Source: Flavobacteriales bacterium
Lineage (GTDB): Bacteria > Bacteroidota > Bacteroidia > Flavobacteriales_F > PHOS-HE28
DNA length: 64,000 nt
NCBI GenBank assembly: GCA_016716605.1
Contig: JADJWA010000001.1
Location: 2,489,330 to 2,553,329 of the forward strand
Direction: 5' to 3'
In this document: positions 1,790-29,301 of the stretch, piece after piece
Position numbering within the stretch: the stretch's first letter is position 1
How the letters are laid out: each line of letters opens with the position of its first letter
The notes under the pieces: model-generated
Database searches by the model: none
What the model saw: the letters and a program-made list of their open reading frames with translations, nothing else
Told to the model about the DNA's origin: nothing
Position numbers and translations under genes: made by a program

Positions 1790-2197
1790 ATGCGCAGTGA
1801 GGCCGATCGCTGGTTAGGGGCGCTCTTCCATGGATGGGTGGAGCTGCTCACGCTGTTCACTGTGCTGCTCACCGCGCTGGCGCTCATGGGTTGGGCCTGG
1901 AACCGGGGCTTCCGTCCGGCTGACCGCGGTCCATTGGTGAGCGTGCCCTTGCTGATGGCGGGCACGGCCATGGTCGTGCTCCTTCGCGCATTCCGTGAAG
2001 AGCTGATTCCCGCGATCATCATCGCCGTAGGGCTCGTTCTGGCGGGTCTGTTGGGCCGCAGCATGCATCCGCGCGGCCTCTGGATTCCGACCATGGCCTT
2101 TTCCGCGCTGCTTGGCATGGGACGCAATCTCAGCGCACTGGCCCTCGGGCTGGTGATCCTGCTCGCGCTGCTCTTCAGCGCGCGCCAGCAGCGATGA
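1790..2197 (+). CDS. Small multi-pass membrane protein, translationally coupled to the first CotH gene
   Basis: Three to four hydrophobic helices (WVELLTLFTVLLTALALMGWAW, LVSVPLLMAGTAMVVLL, IPAIIIAVGLVLAGLL, LSALALGLVILLALLF). Its stop overlaps the next start (ATGA at 2194-2197). The start codon is uncertain (1727 or 1790). Confidence 0.5.
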   Translation: MRSEADRWLGALFHGWVELLTLFTVLLTALALMGWAWNRGFRPADRGPLVSVPLLMAGTAMVVLLRAFREELIPAIIIAVGLVLAGLLGRSMHPRGLWIPTMAFSALLGMGRNLSALALGLVILLALLFSARQQR

Positions 2198-3789
2198 AGA
2201 AGCCCAGCTCACCGGCTGCGATCCTCCGCATCGGCTTCACGGTGCTGATCCTGCTTTCAATCCTGGGCTTCGCGGTCTCGCTCGGCCCATCGCGCGCCGC
2301 GCGCATTGCTGGTGCTGCTGTCGCGAACGTGCTGGTCGATGGCTTCGCGGAACAGCCCGGAGAGCACCGCATCCCCATCATCGATCTGCGTGTCGATCCT
2401 GCGGCGCTCGATAGCCTGAATGCCGACCTGCCCTGGAGCGGTGGCACCAATGTGAAGGCCCGGCTGATCGACAACGGGGTGGAGCACAAGGTGCGCTACC
2501 GCTATCGCGGGATGTACACGCCATCTCATTTCCTCGGCGGCAAGAAGTCGTTCCGCCTGAGCATGAAGCGCAGCAACCCGTGGGCGCCTTACCGCCGCGT
2601 GAACGTGATCAATCCCAAGGCGCACAACCTGGTGAACAACCACATGGCCGCGTGGGTGGCGGGCAGCATGGGCGTTCCGGTCCCGATGGATGAGATGGTC
2701 ATCGCGCGCATCAATGGCCAGGACATCGGCGTGATGGAGCTCTATGAGCAGGTCGATGGCGACTTCGAGCGCAATCGTCATATCTGGCCGGAGCAGGTGC
2801 CCGTGTACAAGGGCGATTTCCCACCGATCAACGGGAGGACCCTCTCCAAGGGCCGCACGCTCTGGGCCGATGCGGCGCACTGGGAATACAGCAGCAAGGC
2901 CGATAGCACGATCGCGCATGCCAAGCTCCTTCGGCTCATTGCCGCGCTGCGGAAGGACACCCTGCCCATGGCCGCGCACCGGGACAGCATCGCCGCGCTC
3001 CTCGATGTGGATGCATGGCTGCGCTATGAAGCCGCGTTGCTGGTGATCAACACCACCCATGTCGATCAGTACCACAACCAATGGCTCGTGCTGAATCCGC
3101 GCAGCGGCCGCTACTATCCCGTGCTCTGGGATGCGCTCATGCTCTTCGCGCCGCCCGGCGAGCCTCTTTACTACGTGAATGATGCGATGAGCTGGTGGAT
3201 CATGCGCATACCGGAGTGGCGGCTTCAGCGGGATCGTTATGCGCGCGACGCCATGCAGCGCTTGCATCGCGAAGGCGGGTTCAACCGCCATCTCGATGCC
3301 GTCGTTGAGCGCATCCGGCCCTCGGTGCTGGCCGATCGCAACAAGTTCGGGAACGTCACCTTGGAGCCTGAGGATGTGCACCGCGTCTCCGTGCTGCATG
3401 TGATCGGATCATTGGCCGGCTTGCGCGATGGAGCCGCTGCGCATTGGGAACAGGCGCTGAATCGGATGGAGCGTGCCGAGGCGGTTGTCGATCGCAGGGC
3501 GGCGCTGCGCATCCGCTCGGAAACCGAGGCCCCGATCCGCTTGCATTGGACGGATGCGCCGCAGCAAGTGCTGGTGAACGGAGAGGCGGTGCAGGCAGAA
3601 CCGTTCGCGGATGGATGGACCATCGTGCTGCACCGGGAGCTGGTCGCGAAGGAGGGCGGCAAGGATCATCCGCTCGCCGACAAACAAGCACTCGTTGTTG
3701 CGCCGCTCGATGCCACCATCGATTTCGGCGGATCCATCCCTGTGTCGCTCATGCTCACCAATGCCATCACCGATGAGCCGATCCGTTAA
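2194..3789 (+). CDS. CotH family protein (atypical-kinase fold family), N-terminally anchored
   Basis: CotH-like blocks: KKSFRLSMKR, NLVNNHMAAWVAGSMGVPVP, INGQDIGVMELYEQVDGDFERN, HVDQYHNQWLVLNP, YPVLWDALMLF. It has an N-terminal hydrophobic segment. Confidence 0.8.
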   Translation: MKKPSSPAAILRIGFTVLILLSILGFAVSLGPSRAARIAGAAVANVLVDGFAEQPGEHRIPIIDLRVDPAALDSLNADLPWSGGTNVKARLIDNGVEHKVRYRYRGMYTPSHFLGGKKSFRLSMKRSNPWAPYRRVNVINPKAHNLVNNHMAAWVAGSMGVPVPMDEMVIARINGQDIGVMELYEQVDGDFERNRHIWPEQVPVYKGDFPPINGRTLSKGRTLWADAAHWEYSSKADSTIAHAKLLRLIAALRKDTLPMAAHRDSIAALLDVDAWLRYEAALLVINTTHVDQYHNQWLVLNPRSGRYYPVLWDALMLFAPPGEPLYYVNDAMSWWIMRIPEWRLQRDRYARDAMQRLHREGGFNRHLDAVVERIRPSVLADRNKFGNVTLEPEDVHRVSVLHVIGSLAGLRDGAAAHWEQALNRMERAEAVVDRRAALRIRSETEAPIRLHWTDAPQQVLVNGEAVQAEPFADGWTIVLHRELVAKEGGKDHPLADKQALVVAPLDATIDFGGSIPVSLMLTNAITDEPIR

Positions 3790-3820
3790 GCATCGATTGA
3801 TCGGGGCGCGGGCCTGGCTC

Positions 3821-5947
3821 ATGGCCGTTGCGATGGTGGCCGTGCTGCTCTTCGTCGGGTTCCGCTTCGTGGATACCGACCGGCTTGCGGGCGATTGGCC
3901 CTTAGGCATCGAGCATCATGAGGTCGATGGCTACGCAGCCCTGCTCGATTGGCGCTCTGATACGGCTTCCGGCACAGCTGAGCGCTACTTGATTTCCAGC
4001 GCGCCCGAGGCGTGCCTTATGGAAGAGCGCGGACCCGGATGGAACACGCACTGGTTTGAGGCGGAAGGCTTTGGCGATTCGGTCGAGGTGCGCCGCTTGC
4101 GAACGGAGCCCGGCGGTTTCGTCATCAAGTTCAAGCGTTCAGAGCCGTTCCGTTCGCAGCGGCATATCGTGCTGTCTCCAGCACGTGTGTCAAGCCTGCG
4201 CGCCAAGTACCTCGAGATCCTTGCGGATGAATTGGGGCTGATCACCCCGGAGGTGAGCTTCGTGCGCATCATCGCCTGCGGCAAGGACCAAGGGCTCTTC
4301 CTGAAAGAGGAACGCATCGACGACGACTTCCTGGAGAAGCGCGGGCTTCCGGGCGCTGCCCTTGCGGAGTTCGGCCACGACGCTTCACGTCCTGACCACC
4401 TTTTCCCTGATTTCGATGATGATTCGCTGGCGATGACCGATCTCACGCCTGTGCTTGCACGGGCATACGGTGAGCTCGCCGCTGGCCGCACGGATCTGCT
4501 TCCTTACCTGGTCGATGCGCGCGCCGCTGGTGCGCTCTTGGTCATGGCTTGGATCGAGCATGGGCCATCGGCCTTCGATCATGCGCATGTGATGGCTTAC
4601 GATTGGTCACGCGGACGTTTGGTGCCCTTGTACCGACGGAGCCGTGCGAACCCGGTTGCACGGACCGCCGTCCCGTTCCGCATGAGCGATCCACTCACCT
4701 TGGCGATAGTGGATGGCACGATCCGCCAGTACGTTCGCGAGCGTTGGTCGAAGCTGAGTGATGAGGCCTGGCGCGTGCGCGAGCGCTTCGCCGCGATCGA
4801 TCGGGCATGGCTGCCCATTCTGGCTGAAGGCCAAGCGTTGGCCGTAGCGCAGGCGCGCATGAAACAGATTCAGGAGGAATTGCTGGGATCCGCGATGCTC
4901 GCCGCCGACCCCATCAAAGGGCTCGAAGCCTCCTTGGCCCGGCATGCGGGCGATGCGTCACTTAGCCTTGGATTGGAGACCACAGGCTATTGGCCCGGCG
5001 ATGACGATGCGGCCATCCTCGCGGGGTTCGCTGAGCGCACAAAGGCATTCGTGCGCGGTGATACACTGGTGTTCCCGCGTGGACGATACCTCATCTCCAG
5101 CGACCTAACCGTGCCGTACGGCCATGCCGTGGTGATGGAGCCAGGCGCGCGGATCGAGATCGCTGCTGGAGCGAGCGTGATGATCCAAGGTCCATGGCAT
5201 GTGCGCGGCACCAAGCGCAATCCGGTCTTCATCCGGGCAGCGGATGATGGAGCGCCCTTCGGCAGTTTCACTGTCGTAGGCGACGGCACCACCGATGTAC
5301 GCATCGAGGGCTTGCAGATGAGCGGCGGGAGCGAGGGCAGGCTCAACGGCGTGTACGCCAGCGGCATGCTCGCCATCCACGGCGCCGCGGGGACCATCAT
5401 GCGGGATTGCGTGATCAGCGGGTCGCACGGCGAGGATCTCATGAACATCAAGGGCGGCGAGGTGCAACTGCGCGATTGCATCTTCGAGAACGGTCACGCT
5501 GATCTGCTGGACTTGGACCGCTGCACAGGAACCATTGATCGCTCGGTCTTCCGCAACGGCCTCGCGGATGCGAACGGCGATGGCCTCGATGTGAGCGCTT
5601 CGCGCATCCTCGTGACCGGCTGCACATTCTCGAATTTGAAGGATAAGGGCATCAGTGTGGGCGAGGCCAGTCAGTTGCTGGCCATGGATTCGCGCTTCGA
5701 TGGAAATTCCGCAGCGCTTGTCTCCAAGGACCTCAGCGTCGCTTACGCTTCGGGTAATCGCTTCATCGGCAACGGGATCGCCTTCGCGGCTTATCGCAAG
5801 AAGCCGATCTACGGCGGGGCACGACTGGTGCGCTACACCAACGTGCTTGAAGCGAATGCGCGTGATGAGCAGGCGGACGAGCAGAGCGCCATCATCACCG
5901 AGGCGGTCCTCGATGAGAAGGTGCGCCGCATGTTCGGGATGCCTTGA
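3821..5947 (+). CDS. Membrane-anchored CotH-like domain fused to a C-terminal parallel beta-helix (pectin-lyase-fold) repeat region
   Basis: TM segment MAVAMVAVLLFVGF. CotH-like blocks: FVIKFKRSEPFRSQRHIVLSP, LRAKYLEILADELGLITPEVSFVRIIACGKDQGLFLKEERIDDDFLEKRG, MAYDWSRGRLVPLYR. The C-terminal repeats read CVISGSHGEDLMNIKGGEVQLRDCIFENGHADLLDLDRCTGTIDRSVFRNG...DGLDVSASRILVTGCTFSN. I set the start at the first ATG after the upstream stop (TTG 3797 is also possible). Confidence 0.7.
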   Translation: MAVAMVAVLLFVGFRFVDTDRLAGDWPLGIEHHEVDGYAALLDWRSDTASGTAERYLISSAPEACLMEERGPGWNTHWFEAEGFGDSVEVRRLRTEPGGFVIKFKRSEPFRSQRHIVLSPARVSSLRAKYLEILADELGLITPEVSFVRIIACGKDQGLFLKEERIDDDFLEKRGLPGAALAEFGHDASRPDHLFPDFDDDSLAMTDLTPVLARAYGELAAGRTDLLPYLVDARAAGALLVMAWIEHGPSAFDHAHVMAYDWSRGRLVPLYRRSRANPVARTAVPFRMSDPLTLAIVDGTIRQYVRERWSKLSDEAWRVRERFAAIDRAWLPILAEGQALAVAQARMKQIQEELLGSAMLAADPIKGLEASLARHAGDASLSLGLETTGYWPGDDDAAILAGFAERTKAFVRGDTLVFPRGRYLISSDLTVPYGHAVVMEPGARIEIAAGASVMIQGPWHVRGTKRNPVFIRAADDGAPFGSFTVVGDGTTDVRIEGLQMSGGSEGRLNGVYASGMLAIHGAAGTIMRDCVISGSHGEDLMNIKGGEVQLRDCIFENGHADLLDLDRCTGTIDRSVFRNGLADANGDGLDVSASRILVTGCTFSNLKDKGISVGEASQLLAMDSRFDGNSAALVSKDLSVAYASGNRFIGNGIAFAAYRKKPIYGGARLVRYTNVLEANARDEQADEQSAIITEAVLDEKVRRMFGMP

Positions 5948-7474
5948 TCAGGGAATGAAGATCCCTGCCCGATCTACCGGCCGTTCAGCGCTGCGGTCCA
6001 CTGCGCCTTGCAGGAGCAGTTCATCGGCCGGCGCCTTGTCAATCGGATAGAGCACCGCATCGGGCTTGTCGAGGAAGATCACGTCGCTGATGGCTCCTTC
6101 TTTCAGGAGCACGCGGATCCGGCTGCAATCAGCGCGGTTCACACCGAAGACCTCATCGGCGCCGTCTTTTTCTTCACGTGTGAAGTAAACCGTGCGGGCA
6201 TTGCCTTCCACATCGAGGCGGTCGAGCGCATTTTCCACGAAGTAGCCGGTCATGACGGTACCGGTCACTTGATCGTAGCGGCTGCTGTCGGCGCGCGAGA
6301 GCAGGAATCCGTTGCCGCGCACATGCAGCCGGTGGGCCTTGCCATCCTTGAGGGCGATGCGGATCGTATCTCCGGTGATCTGGTCGGCGCCGTTCCAGAG
6401 CACGGGCCGGTGATGCATGCGGATCAGGCTGTCGGCATCGCTGAAGAGCAGGGTATCGCAAGCGCCTTGCAGGTCGCGCTTGAAGAAGCGCACGCTCCGG
6501 CGCGCGGTGATGCGTCGGCCCGGGCCATCAGGCGCGGTGAAGAGCGTGTCGCCATGCACGAATAGCGTATCGTCGTCCATGCGCAGCTGCAGCTCGGCTT
6601 GTCCGGTGATCATGCTGCGCTCGTCGCGCTCGCTGTAGCGGCCTTCGCTTCCCAAGGCGCGCAGGTCGCCGCTGCTGTCGGTGATGGCCACATGGCCCCA
6701 AGCCCAGCCGATCCCGCCAGCGCGCTCGTAGTGCAGGCTGTCGCCCTCGATCATCCGGCCCTTGCTGCGCACCTGGGTCCGGCGGTTGAAGCGGGCGCGT
6801 TCGTTGCGTGTATCGTATGTGCCGCCGAGGGTGCTGATCTCGGTCTCGCCTTGCGTGATCGCGGTGGGCCCGAAGAAGGCCGCGATGCCGGTGGTCGTGG
6901 CGTAGTGCATGGTATCGCCGGTGATGCGGCGATCGGGGTGCTCCAGCAGCACGTTGCTGCCGAAGATGAATCGGCGTTGATCGGCGAGATAGGTGCCGGT
7001 GCCGCTGGTGAGCACGCTGCCGTCATCCTGGTTCACGATACGCCCCCCCTGGCTGTACACGGCGCGCTTGCCGCGCAGGTCGTAATCGAGCGCGGGAGCT
7101 GTGAGCTCCATGCTGCGGTCACGCAGGCGCACATTGCCCTCGAGGCGCGCTGCGCGCTGCTGGCCGTTGTAGCGCAGCAGGTCGGCGTCGGCGCGGAGCG
7201 TATCGCCCTGCTCGATGCTCACGTGACCGAAGGCATCCACGCGCTGATCAGCGAAGAGGAGCGCGCTGTCGCACCGCATCAGCGCTTCGGCATGCTTGAA
7301 GCGCACGTTGCCGCGGAGCCGTTGCGCGCCGCTGGCCGTCTGGTCATAGAGCCACACGTCGGCATTGAGGATCTCCACCCGGCCATCTCCTCCGCTCACC
7401 GCTGATTGCGCGGCGACCGCGGGGGAAATGATGGCCACGGGCATGAATAGCGCGGCACGCATGATGCTGCGCAT
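5948..7474 (-). CDS. Secreted OstA/LptA-like repeat protein
   Basis: Signal peptide MRSIMRAALFMPVAIISPAVAAQS, then reiterated OstA-N-like strands (LRGNVRFKH, LEGNVRLRD, GHVSIEQGDTL, GHVAITD). The family call is by resemblance. Confidence 0.65.
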   Translation of the reverse strand: MRSIMRAALFMPVAIISPAVAAQSAVSGGDGRVEILNADVWLYDQTASGAQRLRGNVRFKHAEALMRCDSALLFADQRVDAFGHVSIEQGDTLRADADLLRYNGQQRAARLEGNVRLRDRSMELTAPALDYDLRGKRAVYSQGGRIVNQDDGSVLTSGTGTYLADQRRFIFGSNVLLEHPDRRITGDTMHYATTTGIAAFFGPTAITQGETEISTLGGTYDTRNERARFNRRTQVRSKGRMIEGDSLHYERAGGIGWAWGHVAITDSSGDLRALGSEGRYSERDERSMITGQAELQLRMDDDTLFVHGDTLFTAPDGPGRRITARRSVRFFKRDLQGACDTLLFSDADSLIRMHHRPVLWNGADQITGDTIRIALKDGKAHRLHVRGNGFLLSRADSSRYDQVTGTVMTGYFVENALDRLDVEGNARTVYFTREEKDGADEVFGVNRADCSRIRVLLKEGAISDVIFLDKPDAVLYPIDKAPADELLLQGAVDRSAERPVDRAGIFIP

Positions 7475-7515
7475 GTTCAATGCGCATGCCGAGGCTTTTG
7501 GGAGCGGGGACCGCA

Positions 7516-8067
7516 TCAATTCAATGATACGCCGGGCAGCCGGCGCATCTGGCGGTAGTGCAGGCTCAGGCGGTCAAGCAGTTCGCGGATGGCGTGGTCG
7601 TCGGCCAGGGTGGCTTGGCTGATCTCCTTTCCCTGGGAGCGGAGCATCATCACTCCGTACACGGCGGTGAGCGCGCTGGTCACCGGGCCGTCGGGGTCGC
7701 CGCCCGCGTGCTGCTGCACGGCGGTGATACCGGCCTTCGCCTTGTCGAAAAGCGCTTGGTAGGCCTCATCCTCGATTGCTTCGAGCAGGGCTTCATGAAG
7801 GTGCTCCAATTCGTTCATCACCTCTTCAACCTCGCCCAGGTGGCCGATCCGCTCGAGACCTTCGGCGCGCATGCGGACGATCAACTCCCGGTACCAATCG
7901 CGCAAGGCTGCCTTGGCCGCCTCGTCGCCATCAGCAGTGGCGATCAATCGGTCCTCCACCTGCTGCAAGTCCAGCTCAAGCGCGCGCATGAGGTCCTCGA
8001 CCTGCCAAATGCCGATCACATAGCCCGCGATGTTCTCCTGCTTGCGCTGTGCGAGCGGGTCCATCAT
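7516..8067 (-). CDS. DUF4924 family protein
   Basis: The N-terminal signature RKQENIAGYVIGIWQVEDLMRALELD resembles the DUF4924 family of Bacteroidota. Its start overlaps the start-proximal end of the downstream ORF's open frame. Confidence 0.65.
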   Translation of the reverse strand: MMDPLAQRKQENIAGYVIGIWQVEDLMRALELDLQQVEDRLIATADGDEAAKAALRDWYRELIVRMRAEGLERIGHLGEVEEVMNELEHLHEALLEAIEDEAYQALFDKAKAGITAVQQHAGGDPDGPVTSALTAVYGVMMLRSQGKEISQATLADDHAIRELLDRLSLHYRQMRRLPGVSLN

Positions 8068-8069
8068 CG

Positions 8070-8714
8070 TTACTTATTGGCGGCCTTGCGCGCGCGATGG
8101 CGAGCATTCAGCCCATCGACCAGCTGCTGCGTGATATCCAGGCCCTCATTGCCCACCCAGATCTGCCCGCCTCCTTGCACGCTGAAGATGTAGTCGTGGC
8201 CGGCCCCTGCGTTGAATTCCTTCAGGTAATCCTCCAGTTCTTTGGCGATCTCTTTCAGCATCTCGCCCTCCATGCGGGCCAGCCGCTCTTCGCCTTCGAC
8301 CTGCATGCCTTGCAGCTTCTCCATCAATCCGCGCAGCTCGGCTTCGTCGCGCTCCACCTCCGCCTTCGTGCTGTAGGTCTGGTCCTTCTGCATCAATTGC
8401 TGGTACCGCTCGCGCGCCTTGGCCTGCTCGGCCTGCAGCCCGGCCTCCAGCCGTCGGCCTTCGGTGATGTAGCGCTGGTCCTTCTCCTTGATCAGCTCAT
8501 AGCCGAGGCGCAGGCTGTCCATGCGGAAGAAGGCGATGCGCGCGCGGTTCAGCCCGGCGCTGTCGGCCATTGAGGGCGCTGGGGCGACAGAGGGATCATG
8601 GACTGCCTCGGCAATCGCATCGGGGCTGGTAGGTTGGCGCATCATGAGCCAGCCGCAAAGGCCGGTCAGCGCGATGTTCCAGATGACGAGGATAGTGGGC
8701 AGGGGCTTGATCAT
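8070..8714 (-). CDS. OmpH/Skp-like periplasmic chaperone family protein
   Basis: N-terminal anchor MIKPLPTILVIWNIALTGLCGWLMM, then a long coiled-coil-like region rich in E/K/Q/R (LIKEKDQRYITEGRRLEAGLQAEQAKARERYQQLMQKDQ...). The C-terminal IFSVQGGGQIWVGNEGLDITQQLVDGLN is typical of the OmpH family. Confidence 0.7.
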   Translation of the reverse strand: MIKPLPTILVIWNIALTGLCGWLMMRQPTSPDAIAEAVHDPSVAPAPSMADSAGLNRARIAFFRMDSLRLGYELIKEKDQRYITEGRRLEAGLQAEQAKARERYQQLMQKDQTYSTKAEVERDEAELRGLMEKLQGMQVEGEERLARMEGEMLKEIAKELEDYLKEFNAGAGHDYIFSVQGGGQIWVGNEGLDITQQLVDGLNARHRARKAANK

Positions 8715-8778
8715 GGGCGTTGAGCGCGGCGCGCGAAGGTATTCGCCTCCAGGCGTGAACCCCATCGCGGGAGCACGT

Positions 8779-9291
8779 TCAGCGCATGCGGACCCAACTC
8801 AGCACCCAGACCAGGAGCACCGGCACGGGGTATTGCAGGGCATGAAGGATGGCGATGGCAACGGGCCTGAGCAGCGCCGGGTTGGCCCAGTAACAGATGC
8901 CAGCGCATGCGCCAAGCGCAGCGAAAAAGACCATGACGGGCACCGCGTAGCGGTGATCGCCGAATCGCGTGCGCGCCATGGCCGCAGTGAGCACGGCCAT
9001 GGAAACCATGAAGGCGCCAGCAGCCAGCCACTTCGCGCGTTGGGCGTCGGCGAGGTCCCAGCCTTGCGCCCAGTCACGGAACACCGAATGCGCGTAGTTC
9101 CGCTCGCGGCTGTTCGAGAGGAAGTCAATCTGGAAATTGATGTTGGTGGCCACGAATTCACGGGCAGCCCCGAGCAGTGAGGCGAGGCCAAGCCAGAACA
9201 GGCTCATCAACGCGCGTTTCTTCGGGATGACCAGGTTGGAGACCGCCGTACCGGCGCGTGATGCCCACGATTGAATCATGCCCGCGTTCAT
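8779..9291 (-). CDS. Exosortase F system-associated membrane protein
   Basis: Its ATG overlaps the xrtF stop (ATGA at 9288-9291). It is a roughly 170-aa multi-pass membrane protein in the position invariably paired with xrtF. Confidence 0.7.
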   Translation of the reverse strand: MNAGMIQSWASRAGTAVSNLVIPKKRALMSLFWLGLASLLGAAREFVATNINFQIDFLSNSRERNYAHSVFRDWAQGWDLADAQRAKWLAAGAFMVSMAVLTAAMARTRFGDHRYAVPVMVFFAALGACAGICYWANPALLRPVAIAILHALQYPVPVLLVWVLSWVRMR

Positions 9292-9836
9292 GCAACGCGC
9301 TTCGTCCAATTGCTGAACCGCTTCACCCAGAGGTACCAGAGCCCGAATACGGCGCCGTAAACCACCACATAGAAGGTGTAGTCGTGGTTGAATTCGAGCC
9401 AGCCATAACCGTGTGTGACAACGATGCACAGGACCGCGACACGAAGAGCATTGAGCAAATGGATCAGGGCGATGCCAGCAGGAATGAACCAGGCCTTGTG
9501 TTTCCAAGGTCCTGGAAAGGCGATGATGAAGACCATGAACACGGCGAAGAGCGGGATGCCATTGCAGGGATCGCCGATCCAGAGATGGCTTCCGCCCTGA
9601 ATACCGATGTAGCGCTCCAGATCGATGCGCGGCTCAGGCAGCATTTCGTGTCCGAGGCCCTCGAGGACGAAGGTGGCGATGGAGACCAGGCTGTTGATCA
9701 CGGCCCGATCGAGCTTGCCCCAGGAATGCAGCCCTAGGTGGTAGGTCAGGAGCCATGCCAGCCAAAGGCCTACTCCAACGACAAGGAAACGAATCAGCGG
9801 GTCACGCTTGGTCGCGGAGCCGGAAGAGAGGGACAT
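9288..9836 (-). CDS. xrtF: Exosortase family protein XrtF
   Basis: A 182-aa polytopic protein with the exosortase active-site context WIGDPCNGIPLFAVFMVF (Cys), NALRVAVLCIV (Arg) and a distal His (EFNHDYTFYV). Small size and the paired downstream membrane protein fit the F clade. Confidence 0.85.
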   Translation of the reverse strand: MSLSSGSATKRDPLIRFLVVGVGLWLAWLLTYHLGLHSWGKLDRAVINSLVSIATFVLEGLGHEMLPEPRIDLERYIGIQGGSHLWIGDPCNGIPLFAVFMVFIIAFPGPWKHKAWFIPAGIALIHLLNALRVAVLCIVVTHGYGWLEFNHDYTFYVVVYGAVFGLWYLWVKRFSNWTKRVA

Positions 9837-9838
9837 GC

Positions 9839-10045
9839 CTATGCCTGACGCCGGCGCATCTGCGCGGCCTTGGCGCCCCCGTATAGCAGGCCAGCTGCCA
9901 ACAAAGCGCTCAATCCGCCGTCAATCGGGATGCAAGGCGGGGGCCAGCAGGGCGGCGGCCCACCGACAGGCTGTGCCATGAGGGCACCAGCGCAGGGAAG
10001 CACAACCATACCGAGGACGAAGAGCGCGCGTAGGACCAGTTGCAT
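9839..10045 (-). CDS. 68-aa secreted mini-protein with a PEP-CTERM-like C-terminal sorting signal (P-I-D variant); candidate XrtF substrate
   Basis: Product is MQLVLRALFVLGMVVLPCAGALMA | QPVGGPPPCWPPPC | IPIDGG-LSALLAAGLLYGG-KAAQMRRRQA. The stop TAG 9839-9841 lies 2 nt before the xrtF ATG. A TACTTTTG -7 box lies 27 nt upstream of its ATG. Codon third positions are G/C-rich like the neighbours. Confidence 0.6.
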   Translation of the reverse strand: MQLVLRALFVLGMVVLPCAGALMAQPVGGPPPCWPPPCIPIDGGLSALLAAGLLYGGAKAAQMRRRQA

Positions 10046-10071: not shown

Positions 10072-10079
10072 CAAAAGTA
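10072..10079 (-). promoter_or_regulatory. Bacteroidota-type -7 promoter box (TACTTTTG) for the mini-protein/xrtF operon
   Basis: It matches TAnnTTTG on the minus strand. A TTTG (-33-like) sits at 10101-10104, 21 nt further upstream. The box is 27 nt upstream of ATG 10045. Confidence 0.45.
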
Positions 10080-10161
10080 TCGAAAGCAAATCAATCTCGC
10101 CAAAATGACTTTTCGACCGACGAAGGCAGTGCTCCGTCCTAGGCACGCGGGACCCCCCACC

Positions 10162-10169
10162 TATATTTG
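10162..10169 (+). promoter_or_regulatory. Bacteroidota-type -7 promoter box (TATATTTG) for the glycan locus
   Basis: It matches TAnnTTTG 52 nt upstream of the Wzc-like ATG 10221. I found no clear -33 TTTG. Confidence 0.4.
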
Positions 10170-10220
10170 GCCGCTTTCATCGGCGGTAAACCGCGCCCTT
10201 GCGCGTCCGCACCCCACTGG

Positions 10221-12638
10221 ATGTCCTCCCCCAAGGCTCAGCAGCGCAACAGCATCATCGATGCGAAGGATGTCCGTGCCTTCCTGCGCATAGCCACGAA
10301 GAACTGGTACTTCGTGGCGGTTGCCCTTGGCGTCTCGGCCGTGCTGGCCTACCTGTACAGCTACAAATTGCCGGATGTATATGGCGCTCGGACCCAGATC
10401 CTGCTGCGCGACCGCGAGGTGTACGACTACCAGACCCAGGTGTACAAGAGCATCGGGTACGTTGGCGCTTACAGCGACCTCGTGAACCAGAAGCGGGTGC
10501 TCACCAGCTTCGACCTTGTGAACCGGACCCTGGACAAGCTGGATTTCGACGTTTCGTACTTCATCGTCGGCAGATTCAAGACCACGCAGCATTACGGCAA
10601 CATGCCCTTCAAGGTCAATATGCAGGTGCTCTCCAAGCGCTTGTATGACCGGCCGATCGACCTGCGGATCCTGGATATCGACCGCTACGAGCTGAGCTAC
10701 GACAAGGATGGGGAGGTCGCTCGCAAGACCTTCCGGTTCAATGTGGATGAGCGCGATGATGATTTCGTCATCCGCGTGGACCGCTCGCCGTACATGACTG
10801 CGAAGAATCAGGCCCAGTTCGCGCAGACCGATTACCAATTCGTGCGGCATGAGCGCGCCCGGCAAGTCAATGAGCGCATCAGGTCCATCAAGGTCGAGAA
10901 CCAGGAGTTCACCACCATCCTTGAGGTGACCACGGAGGATGAGGTGTCTGAGCGCGCCAAGCTCTTCCTGGATTCGCTCTCCGCGGAGTACATCCGGCAG
11001 ACGCTGAAGAGCGAATACGAGATCAATGAGAATACGGTGAACTACATCGACCGCCAGCTCGCTGAGGTCACCGTGGTGCTCGACCAGCATGAGCGCGAAT
11101 TGCTCAGCTACAAGCAGGATGAGGACGTCATCGACATCGAGCGGGAGGAGAACCTCTTCTTCAGCGAGATGGTCACCTACGACAAGCAGCGGAGGCAGTT
11201 CGAGCTCGACATGCAGGCGCTTGATGCGTTGGAGGAGTACGTCCTCAATAGCGAGGACGAGCGCCTGCTGCCGCCGGCCACCTTCATCATCGAGGACATG
11301 TTCCTCCGCGAAATGCTCGGCAGCCTCGTTAACAAGCAGATGGAGCGCAATGCCATGCTCTACTCCGGCACTGCAGCCAACATGGCGGTGCAAGAGGTTG
11401 ATAGCACGCTTCGCCGGGACCGCGCCAGCCTGCTCACCTACATCAATAACGCCCGTTCCGCCAAGCAAGGGCGCATGGCCGATGTGCAATCACAGGTCGG
11501 CGACTATGAGCGCATGCTCCAGAAGCTCCCGAGGAAGCAGCGCGACATGATCAACATCCAGCGCCGCCTTGCCGTGAACGAGCGGCTCTACACGTTCATG
11601 CTCGAGAAGCGCGCCAGCACCATCATTGCCCGCGCGGGCATCGTGCCGCAGACCAAGGTGATCGAGAGCGCGCGCGGCTTGGGCGTGATCCGGCCGGACA
11701 AGGCCAAGATCCTGTACACCTTCATGCTCGGCGGGGTGGTGGTGGCCCTGCTGGTGGTCTTCATCCGCGTGATGTTCTACGACCGCATCGAGAACGCCGA
11801 CCAGCTCAAGGAACTCACACCGCTGCCCATCTACGGCGAGATCATCGCCAGCGAGAAAGCCGAACAGAACTACGTGGTGGTGGATAGCGACCCCAAGGCC
11901 GCCATCACCGAGAGCTTCCGGTCCGTGCGCACCAATCTGGAATACGTGCAGGGCAGGGGCGAAGGCGGCAAAGTGGTGATGGTGACCAGCTACCGGCCCA
12001 ACGAAGGGAAGACCTTCTGCTCGGTGAACCTCAGCGCGATCCTGGCCAAGGCCGGCAAGCGCGTGCTGCTGCTCGAACTCGACCTGCACAAGCCCAAGGT
12101 GGCCACGGGCCTCGGCATGAGCAGCACTACGGGCCTGAGCAATGTGCTCATCGGAAAGGTGCCCTGGCGCGACGCCGTGCTGCCCACCCAGTTCGAGAAT
12201 TTCCATGTGATGCTCAGCGGCCCCACCCCGCCCAATGCCTCGGAGCTCGTGCTCAGCAAGAAGCTGGAGGAATTGTTCGCTGAGGCCCGACATGAGTTTG
12301 ACTATGTGCTCGTCGATACCCCGCCCGTGGGCCTGATCACCGATGCATTGCTCATGATGCGCTATGCCGACTGCACCATGTTCGTGGTGAACACGCAGTT
12401 CGCCAGCAAGGACCACGTGAACAATGCCTTGGAAGTGCTGGCCACCAACCCTGGCGTGAATGCTGGCTTCATCCTCAACGGCGTCCGGATGAAGAAGAGC
12501 AAGTACTACTACAATACCAATTACGGCTACGGATACCGTTATGCGTACGGCTACGGCAGCGGCTATGGCTATGGATATGGCTATGGCCGCCGGAGCAAAG
12601 GCAAGGAGAAGAGCGATGACCGGAACCAATCCGCATGA
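10221..12638 (+). CDS. Polysaccharide co-polymerase / bacterial tyrosine (BY) kinase, Wzc/GumC-like
   Basis: N-terminal Wzz-like TM segment (WYFVAVALGVSAVLAYLY), a long coiled periplasmic region and a second TM (LGGVVVALLVVFI). Kinase Walker A is YRPNEGKTFCSVNLS, A' is LLLELDLHKP, B is DYVLVDTPPVG. The C-terminal Tyr cluster reads YYYNTNYGYGYRYAYGYGSGYGYGYGYG. Confidence 0.9.
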   Translation: MSSPKAQQRNSIIDAKDVRAFLRIATKNWYFVAVALGVSAVLAYLYSYKLPDVYGARTQILLRDREVYDYQTQVYKSIGYVGAYSDLVNQKRVLTSFDLVNRTLDKLDFDVSYFIVGRFKTTQHYGNMPFKVNMQVLSKRLYDRPIDLRILDIDRYELSYDKDGEVARKTFRFNVDERDDDFVIRVDRSPYMTAKNQAQFAQTDYQFVRHERARQVNERIRSIKVENQEFTTILEVTTEDEVSERAKLFLDSLSAEYIRQTLKSEYEINENTVNYIDRQLAEVTVVLDQHERELLSYKQDEDVIDIEREENLFFSEMVTYDKQRRQFELDMQALDALEEYVLNSEDERLLPPATFIIEDMFLREMLGSLVNKQMERNAMLYSGTAANMAVQEVDSTLRRDRASLLTYINNARSAKQGRMADVQSQVGDYERMLQKLPRKQRDMINIQRRLAVNERLYTFMLEKRASTIIARAGIVPQTKVIESARGLGVIRPDKAKILYTFMLGGVVVALLVVFIRVMFYDRIENADQLKELTPLPIYGEIIASEKAEQNYVVVDSDPKAAITESFRSVRTNLEYVQGRGEGGKVVMVTSYRPNEGKTFCSVNLSAILAKAGKRVLLLELDLHKPKVATGLGMSSTTGLSNVLIGKVPWRDAVLPTQFENFHVMLSGPTPPNASELVLSKKLEELFAEARHEFDYVLVDTPPVGLITDALLMMRYADCTMFVVNTQFASKDHVNNALEVLATNPGVNAGFILNGVRMKKSKYYYNTNYGYGYRYAYGYGSGYGYGYGYGRRSKGKEKSDDRNQSA

Positions 12639-13516
12639 CCATGGCCATGCGTGATGCCGGGGACGCGCAATCGGAGCAATGGGAGGTAGTGGTACGTCCC
12701 GAACACGGTTGGTGGAGCCTGGACCTGCGCGAGATCTGGCGCTATCGTGACCTGCTGCTGCTGCTGGTCCGGCGCGACTTGCTCGCGGTGTACAAGCAGA
12801 CCCTCATCGGCCCTGCATGGCAGGTCCTGCAACCGCTGCTCACTTCCATCATGTTCGCCGTGGTCTTCGGGATCATGGCGCGCATGGCGCCGTCCGGCAT
12901 ACCGCCCTTGCTCTTCTACCTGAGCGCAGTGGTGCCCTGGGGCTTCTTCAGCGGCGTGGTCACACGCACCTCCCAGACCCTGTTGAGCAACGCCGCCTTG
13001 ATGACCAAGGTGTACTTCCCACGGCTGGTGGCGCCCTTGGCCACGGTGCTCGCCACCGGATTCAATTTCGGGGTGCAGCTCACGGCTTATCTGGTGTTCG
13101 CGCTCATCTACGCGCTGCTCGGCAAGCACCCATGGCCCGTGGGGGCCGAGGCCGCCATGTTGCCCGCGCTCATCGCCATCATCGCCGTCATGGGCCTGGG
13201 CGTCGGCCTCGGGGTCAGCGCGCTCACCGCGCGCTACCGCGACTTCGGCCTCCTCATCGGCTTCGCTGTGCAACTGCTGATGTACGCCAGCCCGGTGATC
13301 TTCCCCCTCTCGATGACCGCGCCCGGCAGCAAGCTCCGCGCTGCCATCGAATTGAACCCGCTCACCCCGGTGATCGAGGGCTTCCGTGCAGCCCTGCTCG
13401 GAATGCCCATGGAATGGGGCACCCTTTGGTACAGCGCAGGGGTGGCAGTCGTTGTGCTGGTGCTCGGCCTGCTTCTCTTCCAGCGCGTAGAGCGCTCATT
13501 CGCTGATGTGATATGA
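12635..13516 (+). CDS. ABC-2 type polysaccharide export permease (Wzm-like)
   Basis: Six-TM ABC-2 layout with the typical N-terminal LREIWRYRDLLLLLVRRDLLAVYKQTLIGPAWQVLQPLL. ATGA overlaps on both sides. Confidence 0.85.
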   Translation: MTMAMRDAGDAQSEQWEVVVRPEHGWWSLDLREIWRYRDLLLLLVRRDLLAVYKQTLIGPAWQVLQPLLTSIMFAVVFGIMARMAPSGIPPLLFYLSAVVPWGFFSGVVTRTSQTLLSNAALMTKVYFPRLVAPLATVLATGFNFGVQLTAYLVFALIYALLGKHPWPVGAEAAMLPALIAIIAVMGLGVGLGVSALTARYRDFGLLIGFAVQLLMYASPVIFPLSMTAPGSKLRAAIELNPLTPVIEGFRAALLGMPMEWGTLWYSAGVAVVVLVLGLLLFQRVERSFADVI

Positions 13517-14775
13517 GCGGGCGAAGTGATTTGGTGATCCAGGTCGAGGACCTGCGCAAGCGATACAGGCTGGGCGTGATGGGCAGCGACCTGCTTGCCG
13601 ATGAGGCCGCTGCGCTCTGGGGCCGAATGCGCGGTCGGGCCAATGCGGGCAAGAAGCGGCGCGCGCCGGAGGGTGAGCAGCGCGTGGGCGATTACTTCTG
13701 GTCGCTGCAAGGCGTGTCCTTCGAGGTGAAGCGCGGCGAGATGCTCGGGATCATCGGGCGCAACGGCGCGGGCAAGAGCACGCTCCTCAAGCTCCTCTCC
13801 CGGATCTCCCTGCCTACCGAAGGCGTGATCCGCATGCGCGGCAAGGTGAGCAGCTTGCTCGAGGTGGGCACGGGCTTCCACCCGGAGCTCACCGGACGCG
13901 AGAACATCTACCTCAACGGCGCCATCCTTGGCATGCGCAAGGCCGAGATCAACCGCAAGCTCGACCAGATCATCGCCTTCAGCGGCATCGAGCATCACCT
14001 CGATTCACCGATCAAGCGGTACAGCAGCGGCATGAAAGTGCGCTTGGGCTTCAGCGTGGCCGCGCACCTGGATCCGGAGATCCTGATCGTCGATGAAGTG
14101 CTCGCCGTGGGCGATGCCGAGTTCCAGCGCAAATGCATCGGCAGCATGCGTGAAGTGGCGTCCAGCGGGCGCACCATCCTCTTCGTGAGCCACAACCTGG
14201 TGAGCCTGCAGAGCCTCTGCACGCGGGCCATCTGGCTTGAGAAAGGACGGCTCCGAGCGGAAGGCCCAACGGATGAACTGGTGCGTGATTACCTGCTTGT
14301 GAGCACGCATCAGCACAGTGCCCAGGAATGGGCCGAAGGGGAGGGCCCTGGAACGGAGGACCTTCGCCTGGTCTCCGTTCGCGCGATCAGCGATGATCCT
14401 TCGGGAGCCTTCACCACCGATTCGGCCGTCCGCATCGAGATCGAGCTGGACAACCTGGGCATCGCCGATGCCGACCTCGATATCCGGCTGCAAGTGCGCA
14501 CGGGCAACGATGCCATCGCCTTCAGCAACGACCTCTCTGCCAGCCAACCGGCCCGGTTCTGGAATCTTGGACGCAGCAAAGTGGCCTGCACCATACCCGC
14601 GCAGCTGCTCAACTCCAATACCTATCGTTACCACTTGGTCTTCTTCCGTCAAGGACGGGTCCTCTTCAAGGCGGAGGATGTGCTGAGCATCGATGTGCAC
14701 GAAGGCGCCCGTTCGGGCTCCACCTTCCGCAAGATGCCCGGTGCGGTGAGGCCCATGCTCACCTGGCAGCGGTGA
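13513..14775 (+). CDS. ABC polysaccharide export ATPase (Wzt-like) with a C-terminal extension of about 160 aa
   Basis: Walker A GRNGAGKSTLLKLL, signature YSSGMKVRLGF, Walker B ILIVDEVLAVGD. The extra C-terminal beta-rich domain reads LRLVSVRAISDD...RIEIELDN...TYRYHLVFF. Confidence 0.9.
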   Translation: MSGRSDLVIQVEDLRKRYRLGVMGSDLLADEAAALWGRMRGRANAGKKRRAPEGEQRVGDYFWSLQGVSFEVKRGEMLGIIGRNGAGKSTLLKLLSRISLPTEGVIRMRGKVSSLLEVGTGFHPELTGRENIYLNGAILGMRKAEINRKLDQIIAFSGIEHHLDSPIKRYSSGMKVRLGFSVAAHLDPEILIVDEVLAVGDAEFQRKCIGSMREVASSGRTILFVSHNLVSLQSLCTRAIWLEKGRLRAEGPTDELVRDYLLVSTHQHSAQEWAEGEGPGTEDLRLVSVRAISDDPSGAFTTDSAVRIEIELDNLGIADADLDIRLQVRTGNDAIAFSNDLSASQPARFWNLGRSKVACTIPAQLLNSNTYRYHLVFFRQGRVLFKAEDVLSIDVHEGARSGSTFRKMPGAVRPMLTWQR

Positions 14776-19847: not shown

Positions 19848-19874
19848 TCGGAACGCGCGCCGCATCTTCGCGGC

Positions 19875-20897: not shown

Positions 20898-20899
20898 AC

Positions 20900-21913: not shown

Positions 21914-21919
21914 TCGATC

Positions 21920-22909: not shown

Positions 22910-22935
22910 ATGGTGCTTCGGGACTCCGCAGGCGA

Positions 22936-28544: not shown

Positions 28545-28764
28545 GTCTCGTCGGGCCTTCAGCCCTCCTGATGCTTATGCTGGTGAAACGGCCGTACCAC
28601 GGGTGCCGCCGGGGATGTGGTCGGCCCTTCAAGCCTTCCATATGTCACGTCCGTGGAATTGGAACTGCTGGTTGCTTCTGGCAGCGCCGGATGCTGCGTT
28701 AACGGGGAAATATCTGAGGGCTGAAAGCCGGACCAGATAGCGGCTTGCGCCAGTGGCGCGAGCC
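28545..28764 (+). repeat. 220-bp hairpin-rich repeat element, copy R (5' side of the RAYT-like gene), merging into the tandem array
   Basis: A direct repeat of 27808-28027. Its last roughly 51 bp (from 28714) are identical in sequence class to the start of the 139-bp tandem unit. Confidence 0.85.
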
Positions 28765-29222: not shown

Positions 29223-29301
29223 ACCTAATCGCGCCAAGTGTGAATTGACGGCCACCCTTGAGGCTGTCATCGATCATTCGAGGATTCCCCATCTTGGCCC
29301 C

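What the first reader, a model, noticed from the sequence alone, without database searches (positions are those of the whole stretch)
9839..10045. Candidate dedicated substrate for exosortase XrtF: 68-aa protein with a P-I-D-G-G / TM helix / basic-tail sorting signal, encoded 2 nt upstream of xrtF
What the sequence shows:
- The ORF product has three parts: MQLVLRALFVLGMVVLPCAGALMA (signal-peptide-like), QPVGGPPPCWPPPC (Pro/Cys-rich, two PPPC repeats), and IPIDGG-LSALLAAGLLYGG-KAAQMRRRQA.
- Its stop (TAG 9839-9841) lies 2 nt before the xrtF ATG (9836).
- A TAnnTTTG box (10072-10079) with a TTTG 21 nt further upstream precedes it. It would therefore be the first gene of the xrtF operon.

Established knowledge: PEP-CTERM-type exosortase substrates end in a short signature motif, a hydrophobic helix and an Arg/Lys cluster. 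The last ~30 residues here have exactly that tripartite layout, with P-I-D in place of P-E-P.

Inference: as far as I recall, XrtF (always paired with its small partner membrane protein, here 8779-9291) has had no clear cognate substrate. This ORF would make it a one-enzyme/one-substrate system. After signal-peptide removal and sorting-signal cleavage the mature product would be only about 18 residues (QPVGGPPPCWPPPCIPID). That suggests a processed or attached peptide rather than a normal surface protein. I cannot check whether current HMM libraries already model a PID-type CTERM domain.
Basis: partly seen in the sequence, partly recalled or inferred. Interest (0 to 1): 0.78.

Follow-up and report, generated by a model that had tools for sequence, protein, structure and literature searches.

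The report
PID-CTERM minipeptide with exosortase XrtX
The 68-residue ORF is a real, strongly conserved secreted mini-protein encoded first in an operon with a membrane sorting enzyme, but that enzyme is exosortase X rather than XrtF, and NCBIfam and Pfam already model the pair, although no paper I could search describes or tests it.

Summary
ORF 9839..10045(-) exists as described. Its stop lies 2 nt before the next ATG. It follows the only full Bacteroidota-type promoter match in the window.

The ORF is a real gene. 213 homologue clusters of about 70 aa were found. The core CWPPPC[IV]P[IV]DGG is invariant in protein, yet third codon positions differ in 51% of pairwise comparisons against 2% at positions 1+2.

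The C-terminus is an exosortase sorting signal and the gene is tightly linked to the exosortase gene. The enzyme, however, is XrtX (NF046081, 173.2 bits, cutoff 170), not XrtF (81.5, cutoff 90).

The system is already curated: NF046080 PID_CTERM (28.1 bits, cutoff 26), Pfam PF28310 PID_CTERM, and NF046082 XrtX-associated membrane protein. No searchable paper mentions it.

All 20 testable XrtX loci carry the minigene directly upstream. Six of six reverse look-ups of CWPPPC-type peptides found it between XrtX-partner and a divergent Wzc / ABC-2 / ABC-ATPase polysaccharide-export module.

Function is inferred: Sec export, cleavage at A24|Q25, then XrtX cleavage at P-I-D and transfer of an ~18-residue Pro/Cys peptide to an unknown acceptor.

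This is a correct rediscovery with a wrong family label. Interest is low to moderate.

The parts
10072..10104 (-). Bacteroidota-type promoter: -33 TTTG (10101-10104), 21-nt spacer, -7 box TACTTTTG (10072-10079); it ends 26 nt before the ATG
   Evidence: Sequence. It is the only TTTG-N17-23-TAnnTTTG match in the window, with 0.08 expected. A TAnnTTTG box is conserved upstream of the orthologue in 15 of 20 loci. Function as a promoter is inferred.
9974..10045 (-). Signal peptide, residues 1-24 (MQLVLR / ALFVLGMVVLPCAGALMA); predicted SPase I site is A24|Q25
   Evidence: Hydrophobic core, residues 1-24. R6, P17 and A24 are at least 90% conserved. A [small]|Q junction occurs in 91 of 150 family representatives and fits the Bacteroidetes Q-rule (PMC5837995, PMC10653852). 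No SignalP-type predictor was available, so the site is inferred.
9920..9973 (-). Predicted mature peptide, residues 25-42, QPVGGPPPCWPPPCIPID; it includes the invariant core and the P-I-D motif (P40-D42 = 9920..9928)
   Evidence: G29, P31-P32, C33, W34, P35-P37, C38, I39, P40, D42, G43 and G44 are invariant in 36 homologues. The codon-position test shows selection on the protein. The exact XrtX cleavage point is unknown.
9842..9919 (-). Rest of the PID-CTERM sorting signal: GG, Gly/Ala/Leu-rich helix (residues 43-58), basic tail KAAQMRRRQA; the stop codon is at 9839-9841
   Evidence: NF046080 PID_CTERM, 28.1 bits against cutoff 26, residues 40-58. Hydropathy. Homologues carry Pfam PF28310 PID_CTERM.
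9288..9836 (-). xrtX, exosortase X, 182 aa; its start lies 2 nt after the minigene stop
   Evidence: NF046081, 173.2 bits against cutoff 170; XrtF TIGR04128, 81.5 bits against cutoff 90. C91, N129, R132 and H151 are invariant in 23 sequences. No solved structure is detectable by sequence.
8779..9291 (-). Divergent XrtX-associated four-helix membrane protein; the ATG at 9291 overlaps the xrtX stop (ATGA), and the real start may be the internal ATG at 9207
   Evidence: The 170-aa form has no NCBIfam or Pfam hit. From M29 (142 aa) it hits NF046082 at E 3e-4, 20.5 bits, over model positions 16-143 of 147. It is linked by phmmer to partners in 15 loci, e.g. L003 at 9e-30, and those partners hit NF046082 at 25-63 bits. 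Four hydrophobic segments.
10167..14775 (+). Conserved divergent neighbours, not part of the operon: Wzc-like co-polymerase / tyrosine autokinase (10167-12638), ABC-2 permease (12635-13516), ABC ATPase (13513-14775)
   Evidence: Wzc and related NCBIfam/Pfam hits. ABC2_membrane and ABC_tran. The same divergent module sits beside PID-XrtX-partner in L068-L073, and Wzc is adjacent in most genome loci.

Best explanation
This is an ordinary, somewhat divergent instance of the curated three-gene PID-CTERM / exosortase X system of uncultured Flavobacteriales. The genes are the precursor minigene, xrtX, and the XrtX-associated membrane protein.

Shown:
- The three genes form a tightly coupled unit behind a Bacteroidota-type promoter.
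- The precursor has a signal-peptide-like N-terminus, an invariant Pro/Cys core, a P-I-D-G-G motif, a short helix and a basic tail.
- XrtX keeps the family's invariant Cys, Arg and His.
- The unit is syntenic with a divergent Wzc / ABC-2 / ABC-ATPase polysaccharide-export module.

Inferred, by analogy with PEP-CTERM/exosortase and PGF-CTERM/archaeosortase:
- The precursor is exported by Sec.
- Signal peptidase I cuts at A24|Q25, and the new N-terminal Gln is probably cyclised to pyroglutamate.
- The C-terminal helix holds the peptide in the inner membrane.
- XrtX cleaves at or just after P-I-D through its Cys and passes the ~18-residue peptide QPVGGPPPCWPPPCIPID to an acceptor.
- The most likely acceptor is a component of the neighbouring polysaccharide pathway or a lipid.

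The cargo is essentially a Pro-rich linker with a C-x4-C pair, not a folded protein. The peptide itself, or its conjugate, is therefore the product.
For: - Family assignment: curated HMM hits above cutoff for PID_CTERM and XrtX; partner homology to NF046082; PF28310 is PID_CTERM.
- Reality of the gene: 213 homologue clusters of 68-75 aa, an invariant core, and codon-position differences of 0.023 against 0.512.
- Linkage: the minigene lies directly upstream of xrtX in 20 of 20 testable loci, and six of six reverse look-ups agree. Stop/start spacing is 2 nt here, and stop and start overlap (TGATG or TAATG) in nine of the other loci.
- Enzyme: C91, N129, R132 and H151 are invariant.
- Specificity: there is only one PID-type ORF in the 64-kb window. 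None occurs in about 40 Bacteroidales loci, apart from one that sits next to an XrtX-like gene.
- Polysaccharide link: the Wzc / ABC-2 / ABC module is conserved, and the window continues into sulfotransferase, DegT aminotransferase, methyltransferase, MBOAT and GT4 genes.
- General model of exosortase action: PMC12188702.
- Q-rule: PMC5837995 and PMC10653852.
Against: - There is no experimental evidence for translation, cleavage, or any acceptor.
- No paper on PID-CTERM or XrtX was found.
- All scores in this lineage are marginal: 173.2 against 170, 28.1 against 26, and the partner at 20.5 against a cutoff of 75.
- A mature part this short is atypical for sorted surface proteins, so 'substrate' may be the wrong word.
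- Some PID-CTERM minigenes lie away from any exosortase gene.
- The cleavage position and the signal-peptidase site are predictions made without a dedicated predictor.
Confidence: 0.8

Rival explanations
1. One reading: the ORF is the long-missing dedicated substrate of exosortase XrtF and its partner protein.
For: XrtF is the second-best model for the enzyme (81.5 bits). Some JGI records call close homologues XrtF. Partner homologues show faint similarity to the XrtF partner TIGR04127, at E 0.01-0.055. XrtF targets are still unknown (PMC12188702; PMC10936215).
Against: The XrtF score is below its cutoff of 90 and far below the XrtX score of 173.2. The window partner has no TIGR04127 hit. A separate curated family set, NF046080 to NF046082, fits all three genes.
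Confidence: 0.04
2. The mini-protein is not a cargo to be delivered. It is a bitopic membrane subunit, pseudo-substrate or regulator that stays with XrtX and its partner, or with Wzc. It could, for example, hold XrtX in an acyl-enzyme state or tune polysaccharide export.
For: The 'cargo' is only a 13-50-residue Pro/Gly-rich linker across the family. Conservation is highest at and just before the motif itself. Stoichiometric co-expression is suggested by translational coupling.
Against: The precursor has the full tripartite sorting-signal architecture and the enzyme keeps an intact catalytic Cys/Arg/His set, which points to turnover. Tandem PID minigenes away from any XrtX gene fit substrates better than subunits.
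Confidence: 0.1
3. The processed peptide is released as a free, disulfide-constrained extracellular peptide such as a signal or an antimicrobial. XrtX would act as a maturation protease, with water as the acceptor.
For: The product would be small. The C-x4-C pair is invariant in this clade and N-terminal pyroGlu is probable, and both features would stabilise a free peptide.
Against: About a tenth of family representatives lack Cys altogether. No receptor, immunity or exporter genes are conserved nearby; the conserved neighbours are polysaccharide-export genes. The near-invariance of the peptide across genera is unusual for signals or bacteriocins.
Confidence: 0.05
4. The ORF is a chance open frame in GC-rich DNA, or the conserved element is a non-coding leader of xrtX.
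For: Spurious ORFs are abundant in this 63% GC window. No Shine-Dalgarno sequence is evident.
Against: Third-position variation accompanies an invariant protein sequence. The ORF passes a curated HMM cutoff. Hundreds of homologues share the same length and architecture.
Confidence: 0.01

Closest known systems
PID-CTERM / exosortase X / XrtX-associated membrane protein (NCBIfam NF046080, NF046081, NF046082; Pfam PF28310 PID_CTERM)
   Same: All three genes match, in the same order. The motif is P-I-D-G-G followed by a helix and a basic tail. PGAP already names homologues 'PID-CTERM protein-sorting domain-containing protein'.
   Different: This lineage is divergent. The partner scores far below its cutoff (20.5 against 75), and XrtX and PID-CTERM scores are only just above theirs. 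The databases give names only; I found no published description or experiment.
XrtF / exosortase F system-associated protein of Flavobacteriia (TIGR04128 / TIGR04127; Fjoh_1448/1449)
   Same: It has a small exosortase of similar length and a small multi-helix partner encoded immediately downstream, in the same phylum. In F. johnsoniae both genes are needed for biofilm formation and surface colonisation (PMC10936215).
   Different: XrtF has no known target (PMC12188702). The window enzyme fails the XrtF cutoff and the partner does not hit TIGR04127.
VPEID-CTERM / exosortase E, a dedicated single-target system of Alphaproteobacteria (Haft et al. 2012, J Bacteriol 194:36; from my own knowledge, the paper could not be opened)
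   Same: One exosortase is paired with one adjacent target that carries a variant motif with an acidic residue.
   Different: Different phylum and exosortase subfamily. This resemblance was not tested here.
PEP-CTERM / XrtA-XrtB and cyanoexosortase CrtB
   Same: Tripartite signal, association with an EPS locus, and a proposed route of tethering, cleavage and possible linkage to polysaccharide (PMC12188702).
   Different: Those systems have many targets per genome with real folded domains. The PEP-CTERM model does not hit this ORF at E<=0.1.
PGF-CTERM / archaeosortase A and GlyGly-CTERM / rhombosortase (from my own knowledge)
   Same: In these precedents, cleavage of a C-terminal sorting helix is coupled to attachment of a lipid.
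   Different: ArtA is an archaeal enzyme and rhombosortase is unrelated. The cargo is a large protein in both.

Membership tests
PID-CTERM protein-sorting domain (NF046080 / PF28310) | HMM score at or above the curated cutoff | tested here: met
   28.1 bits against cutoff 26, residues 40-58 on model positions 2-20 of 25. Homologues carry precomputed PF28310 PID_CTERM. PF28310 is absent from the local Pfam copy.
PID-CTERM protein-sorting domain (NF046080 / PF28310) | Motif, hydrophobic helix and basic cluster at the extreme C-terminus | tested here: met
   P40-I-D-G-G44, a hydrophobic segment at 43-58, and KAAQMRRRQA ending the protein.
PID-CTERM protein-sorting domain (NF046080 / PF28310) | N-terminal Sec signal peptide | tested here: inconclusive
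   R6 and a hydrophobic core to A24, followed by a conserved A|Q junction. This is consistent, but no signal-peptide predictor was available.
PID-CTERM protein-sorting domain (NF046080 / PF28310) | Cleavage of the signal by the cognate exosortase | not testable with these tools
   Needs proteomics or genetics.
Exosortase X (NF046081) | HMM score at or above the cutoff and best among exosortase models | tested here: met
   173.2 bits against cutoff 170. The next best is XrtF at 81.5.
Exosortase X (NF046081) | Conserved exosortase/archaeosortase Cys, Arg and His | tested here: met
   C91, R132 and H151 (plus N129) are invariant in 23 sequences. The TIGR04178 signature scores 58.1 bits against cutoff 23.
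Exosortase X (NF046081) | Co-occurrence with a PID-CTERM target | tested here: met
   Adjacent here. The minigene is present in 20 of 20 XrtX loci with upstream sequence.
XrtX-associated membrane protein (NF046082) | HMM score at or above cutoff 75 | tested here: not met
   No hit for the 170-aa form. 20.5 bits, E 3e-4, from M29. Homology is supported indirectly: phmmer links it to partners in 15 loci, and those partners hit NF046082 at 25-63 bits. It is a divergent relative, not a member by the curated threshold.
XrtX-associated membrane protein (NF046082) | Encoded immediately downstream of xrtX | tested here: met
   The ATG at 9291 overlaps the xrtX stop. The same position is seen in L001-L015, L017, L018 and L020.
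XrtF (TIGR04128) | HMM score at or above cutoff 90 and best-scoring model | tested here: not met
   81.5 bits, outscored by XrtX at 173.2.
XrtF (TIGR04128) | Adjacent exosortase F system-associated protein (TIGR04127, cutoff 35) | tested here: not met
   No hit for the window partner even at E<=10. Partner homologues from L017 and L018 reach only 13.6-16 bits.
PEP-CTERM (XrtA/XrtB targets) | Match to the PEP-CTERM sorting-domain model | tested here: not met
   PID_CTERM is the only NCBIfam family reported at E<=0.1.

The most novel reading that the evidence does not exclude
The PID-CTERM minigene may encode no surface protein at all. It may instead encode a ribosomally made peptide 'handle'. 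On this reading, XrtX transfers the pyroGlu-capped, polyproline-like 18-mer from its Cys onto an amino group of the polysaccharide, or of its lipid carrier, exported by the adjacent Wzm/Wzt/Wzc machinery. The invariant C-W-P-P-P-C pair would then form intermolecular disulfides, much as an antibody-hinge CPPC does, and cross-link glycan chains into a matrix. If that is right, the related XrtF system might use a similar overlooked minigene or a non-protein nucleophile.
Probability: 0.12. Interest if true: 0.75.

Novelty: already known. Interest (0 to 1): 0.3.

Why it matters
As a discovery claim it matters little. The sorting signal, the enzyme and the partner already have curated NCBIfam models, and the signal also has a Pfam model. 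A near-identical locus is in GenBank (L001, a Flavobacteriales MAG from contig JADIYA010000018, 99% identical XrtX). Current PGAP runs already name such ORFs.

What remains of value:
- The system is experimentally untouched and unpublished as far as I could search.
- Its 'cargo' is extraordinarily small and conserved, which makes it one of the simplest exosortase systems for asking what exosortases attach their substrates to.
- It is the nearest relative of XrtF that has a recognisable target. It also has a conserved link to a Wzc / ABC-transporter polysaccharide module, so it could guide the search for XrtF substrates in tractable Flavobacterium.

The correction from XrtF to XrtX also matters for annotation, because some JGI records still label these enzymes XrtF.

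Tried and rejected
- Literature: searches for 'PID-CTERM', 'XrtX' and 'exosortase X' gave no relevant paper. Haft et al. 2012 (PMC3256604) is not held.
- Local Pfam: no hit for the minigene, because PF28310 is newer than the local copy.
- PDB: a sequence-profile search with the XrtX alignment gave no hit at E<=1. I therefore did not spend structure-prediction jobs. The tools return no coordinates, so proximity of the catalytic residues could not have been tested anyway.
- Other substrates: I looked for an equivalent small substrate beside the roughly 40 Bacteroidales XrtX-like exosortases (L023-L065), using a motif regex and a generic filter for signal peptide plus C-terminal helix plus basic tail. 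Only L042 has one.
- Promoter and terminator scan: the sigma-70 scan is uninformative for Bacteroidota, and no intrinsic terminator was found between 7400 and 10400.
- Mature N-terminus: my first heuristic cut inside the hydrophobic core, so I discarded it. I replaced it with the [small]|Q junction count.
- First core regex: it was mis-specified and caught only 7 loci. The corrected version is.
- Lipoprotein reading: I rejected a lipobox at 'VLPC'. That Cys is not conserved in homologues, where the position is occupied by other residues (F, L, S, M, W, A and others).
- Not done: I could not check whether bona fide xrtF genes have an overlooked upstream minigene.

Full report
**1. What is in the sequence**

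On the minus strand, 9839..10045 is a 68-codon ORF. Its product is MQLVLRALFVLGMVVLPCAGALMA | QPVGGPPPCWPPPCIPID | GGLSALLAAGLLYGGAKAAQMRRRQA.

- The stop TAG (9839-9841) is followed by GC and then the ATG (9836) of a 182-aa gene at 9288..9836.
- The stop of that gene overlaps (ATGA) the ATG at 9291 of a 170-aa membrane protein at 8779..9291.
- Upstream, TTTG (10101-10104), a 21-nt spacer and TACTTTTG (10072-10079) form a Bacteroidota-type promoter. This is the only TTTG-N17-23-TAnnTTTG match in the 64-kb window on either strand. The number expected by chance is 0.08, and 8 of 100 shuffles gave at least one match.
- Fifteen of 20 orthologous loci have a TAnnTTTG box 16-63 nt before the ATG.
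- Hydropathy shows two hydrophobic segments, residues 1-24 and 43-58.

**2. Is it a real gene?**

Yes.

- The 5.8-billion-protein search returned 213 clusters, and those listed are almost all 68-75 aa. They come almost entirely from uncultured Flavobacteriales or other Bacteroidota.
- In an alignment of 36 of them, G29, P31, P32, C33, W34, P35, P36, P37, C38, I39, P40, D42, G43 and G44 are invariant. The signal peptide and the helix vary.
- Across 19 distinct DNA versions of the 12-codon core C-W-P-P-P-C-[IV]-P-[IV]-D-G-G, mean pairwise difference is 0.023 at codon positions 1+2 and 0.512 at position 3. That is purifying selection on this reading frame. It rules out both a chance ORF and a purely RNA or DNA element.
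- A profile search of 1.84 billion cluster representatives gave 1070 hits at E<=1e-3 and 83 at E<=1e-10. The best 150 are all 53-130 aa.

**3. What it is**

NCBIfam places the three genes in one curated set with consecutive accessions.

- *Minigene.* NF046080, 'PID-CTERM protein-sorting domain', 28.1 bits against cutoff 26.
- *Enzyme.* NF046081, 'exosortase X', 173.2 bits against cutoff 170. The XrtF model TIGR04128 reaches only 81.5 bits against cutoff 90.
- *Downstream protein.* No hit at full length. From its internal Met (M29) it matches NF046082, 'XrtX-associated membrane protein', over model positions 16-143 of 147, but at only 20.5 bits against cutoff 75.
  - Its homologues in 15 related loci are linked to it by phmmer, for example L003 at 9e-30. 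Those homologues hit NF046082 at 25-63 bits.
  - Only faint similarity to the XrtF partner TIGR04127 is seen, at E 0.01-0.055.
- *Pfam.* The precomputed accession on nearly all homologues, PF28310, is named PID_CTERM. It is missing from the local Pfam copy, which explains the empty result.
- *Existing annotation.* PGAP already names some homologues 'PID-CTERM protein-sorting domain-containing protein'.

They do. The 'XrtF' label is wrong by the curated thresholds, although some JGI records carry the same label for close homologues.

The window is from, or very close to, a Flavobacteriales MAG. L001 (JADIYA010000018) has XrtX 99% identical, and its minigene has an identical core DNA sequence and the same profile score.

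**4. Linkage**

Starting from the enzyme, the genome-collection scan gave 65 loci.

- The 22 loci with at least 44% identity to the window enzyme form the XrtX group. The two members tested, L016 and L018, score 188-197 bits on NF046081.
- Twenty of the 22 have sequence upstream, and all 20 carry the minigene ending 0-30 nt before xrtX. The other two begin at a contig edge.
- In many of them stop and start overlap as TGATG or TAATG.

Starting from the peptide, I looked up six CWPPPC-type proteins: P0094 (two contigs), P0017, P0081, P0055 and P0119. Every one lies between a divergent [ABC ATPase, ABC-2 permease, Wzc] block and [XrtX, 150-170-aa membrane protein]. The window has the same arrangement:

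- A Wzc-like tyrosine autokinase with a Tyr-rich tail (10167-12638), an ABC-2 permease and an ABC ATPase.
- Then sulfotransferase, DegT aminotransferase, methyltransferase, MBOAT and GT4 genes.

Genes downstream of the partner are not conserved. The window, L001 and L002 have OmpH, DUF4924 and OstA_2 genes there; other loci have SHMT. The functional unit is therefore three genes.

The full-length family HMM finds exactly one such ORF in the 64-kb window. It finds none in the roughly 40 Bacteroidales loci, apart from L042.

**5. The wider family**

Representatives show one theme:

- A signal peptide.
- Then usually a [small]|Q junction, seen in 91 of 150.
- Then a stretch from that Gln to the P-x-D motif of 13-50 residues, median 22, and about 50% Pro+Gly.
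- Then P-[IVL]-D-G-G (PIDGG in 105 of 150), a Gly/Ala-rich helix and a Lys/Arg tail.

CWPPPC is exact in 62 of 150, and a C-x4-C-x pair directly abuts the motif in 77. About a tenth have no Cys at all.

These proteins are essentially 'cargo-less' sorting signals. One Bacteroidia MAG (L066/L067) has two tandem Cys-free copies with a terminator-like hairpin after them and no exosortase within 4 kb. Single-copy adjacency is therefore typical of the window's clade, not a rule of the family.

**6. Mechanism**

*Shown:* the gene order, the coupling, the sorting-signal architecture, the invariant C91/N129/R132/H151 in XrtX, and the conserved synteny with polysaccharide export.

*Inferred:*
- Sec export and SPase I cleavage at A24|Q25. 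The conserved A|Q junction fits the Bacteroidetes Q-rule, under which the exposed Gln is cyclised to pyroglutamate (PMC5837995, PMC10653852).
- Retention by the C-terminal helix.
- Cleavage at or after P-I-D by XrtX.
- Transfer of the ~18-mer to an acceptor. The published working model for exosortases has the same steps and also leaves the acceptor open, with polysaccharide as the favoured guess (PMC12188702).

XrtF and its partner are needed for biofilm formation and surface colonisation in F. johnsoniae, and their targets are still unknown (PMC10936215; PMC12188702).

Nothing here distinguishes among attachment to glycan, attachment to lipid, release as a free peptide, or a role as subunit or pseudo-substrate. 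I rank these 'transfer to an acceptor', then 'subunit or pseudo-substrate', then 'free peptide'.

**7. Comparison and novelty**

The locus is a member, by curated cutoffs, of PID-CTERM and XrtX. Its third gene is a divergent relative of NF046082. It is not a member of XrtF/TIGR04127 or of PEP-CTERM.

The closest conceptual precedent for one enzyme with one adjacent target is VPEID-CTERM/XrtE. That rests on my own knowledge of Haft et al. 2012, because the paper could not be opened.

The system is already known to the curated databases, and a near-identical locus is public, so I rate novelty as 'already known'. What is not known, as far as six literature searches show, is anything experimental.

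**8. Verdict**

Interest is 0.3. This is a correct blind rediscovery of a curated but uncharacterised system. Its odd feature, a tiny invariant Pro/Cys peptide as the only cargo next to a Wzc/ABC polysaccharide exporter, makes it a good minimal model but not a new kind of system.

Noticed in passing
L042 3549..3809 (+) and 3860..4432 (+): A Lentimicrobiaceae MAG has an 86-aa Cys-free PID-like minigene (...GGSPIDGG, helix, RWKRKK; NF046080 24.2 bits, just under cutoff 26). It lies 50 nt upstream of a Bacteroidales-type XrtX-like exosortase. Members of that Bacteroidales clade reach no NCBIfam exosortase cutoff (XrtX 73-103 bits in L023, L040 and L056). About 40 sister loci show no comparable ORF.
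   Followed up: partly
L067 4001..4213 and 4210..4410 (+) (also L066): Two tandem, overlapping Cys-free PID_CTERM minigenes (70 and 66 aa; mature parts such as QGPPPPPPNPAAVPID) are followed by a hairpin. They sit between giant Por_Secre_tail and Beta_helix proteins, with no exosortase within 4 kb. PID-CTERM peptides are therefore not always single-copy or adjacent to xrtX.
   Followed up: partly
window 10167..14775 (+); L068-L073: A divergent module of ABC ATPase, ABC-2 permease and Wzc-like tyrosine autokinase is conserved next to PID-XrtX-partner across Flavobacteriales MAGs. The glycan-modifying genes beyond it vary: sulfotransferase and DegT here and in L068/L069, and Methyltransf_21, WbqC or GT61 elsewhere.
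   Followed up: partly
window 5948..8765 (-): OmpH/Skp-like (8070-8765), DUF4924 (7516-8067) and a 523-aa OstA_2/LptD_N-like protein (5948-7519) are packed head-to-tail directly behind the XrtX partner gene. This occurs only in the window, L001 and L002; in other lineages SHMT follows. It is probably an unrelated envelope-biogenesis cluster that may be co-transcribed here.
   Followed up: partly
window 8779..9291 (-): The partner gene's annotated-style start (the ATG at 9291, overlapping the xrtX stop) adds a 28-residue N-terminal extension. Partner homologues from L007, L011, L017 and L018 are 153-158 aa, against 170 aa here. The NF046082 match appears only when translation is taken from the internal ATG at 9207, so the true start is uncertain.
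   Followed up: partly
window 10167..12638 (+): The Wzc-like protein ends in an unusually long Tyr/Gly repeat (YYYNTNYGYGYRYAYGYGSGYGYGYGYGRRSKGKEK), which is presumably the autophosphorylation tail.
   Followed up: no
window 2194..5947 (+): A CotH-kinase-domain protein (531 aa) is followed by a 778-aa right-handed beta-helix protein, upstream of the envelope cluster. Two neighbouring ORFs (1070-1708 and 1727-2197) have no Pfam match.
   Followed up: no
window 19389..23844 (-) and 28699..30684 (-): Several large ORFs inside the polysaccharide locus have no Pfam hit at E<=1e-5. They are 501, 480, 234 and 302 aa, plus a 661-aa ORF. Their third-position GC is lower (0.61-0.67, against about 0.8 elsewhere) for all but the 302-aa ORF (0.82). 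This may be a horizontally acquired, variable part of the glycan cluster.
   Followed up: no
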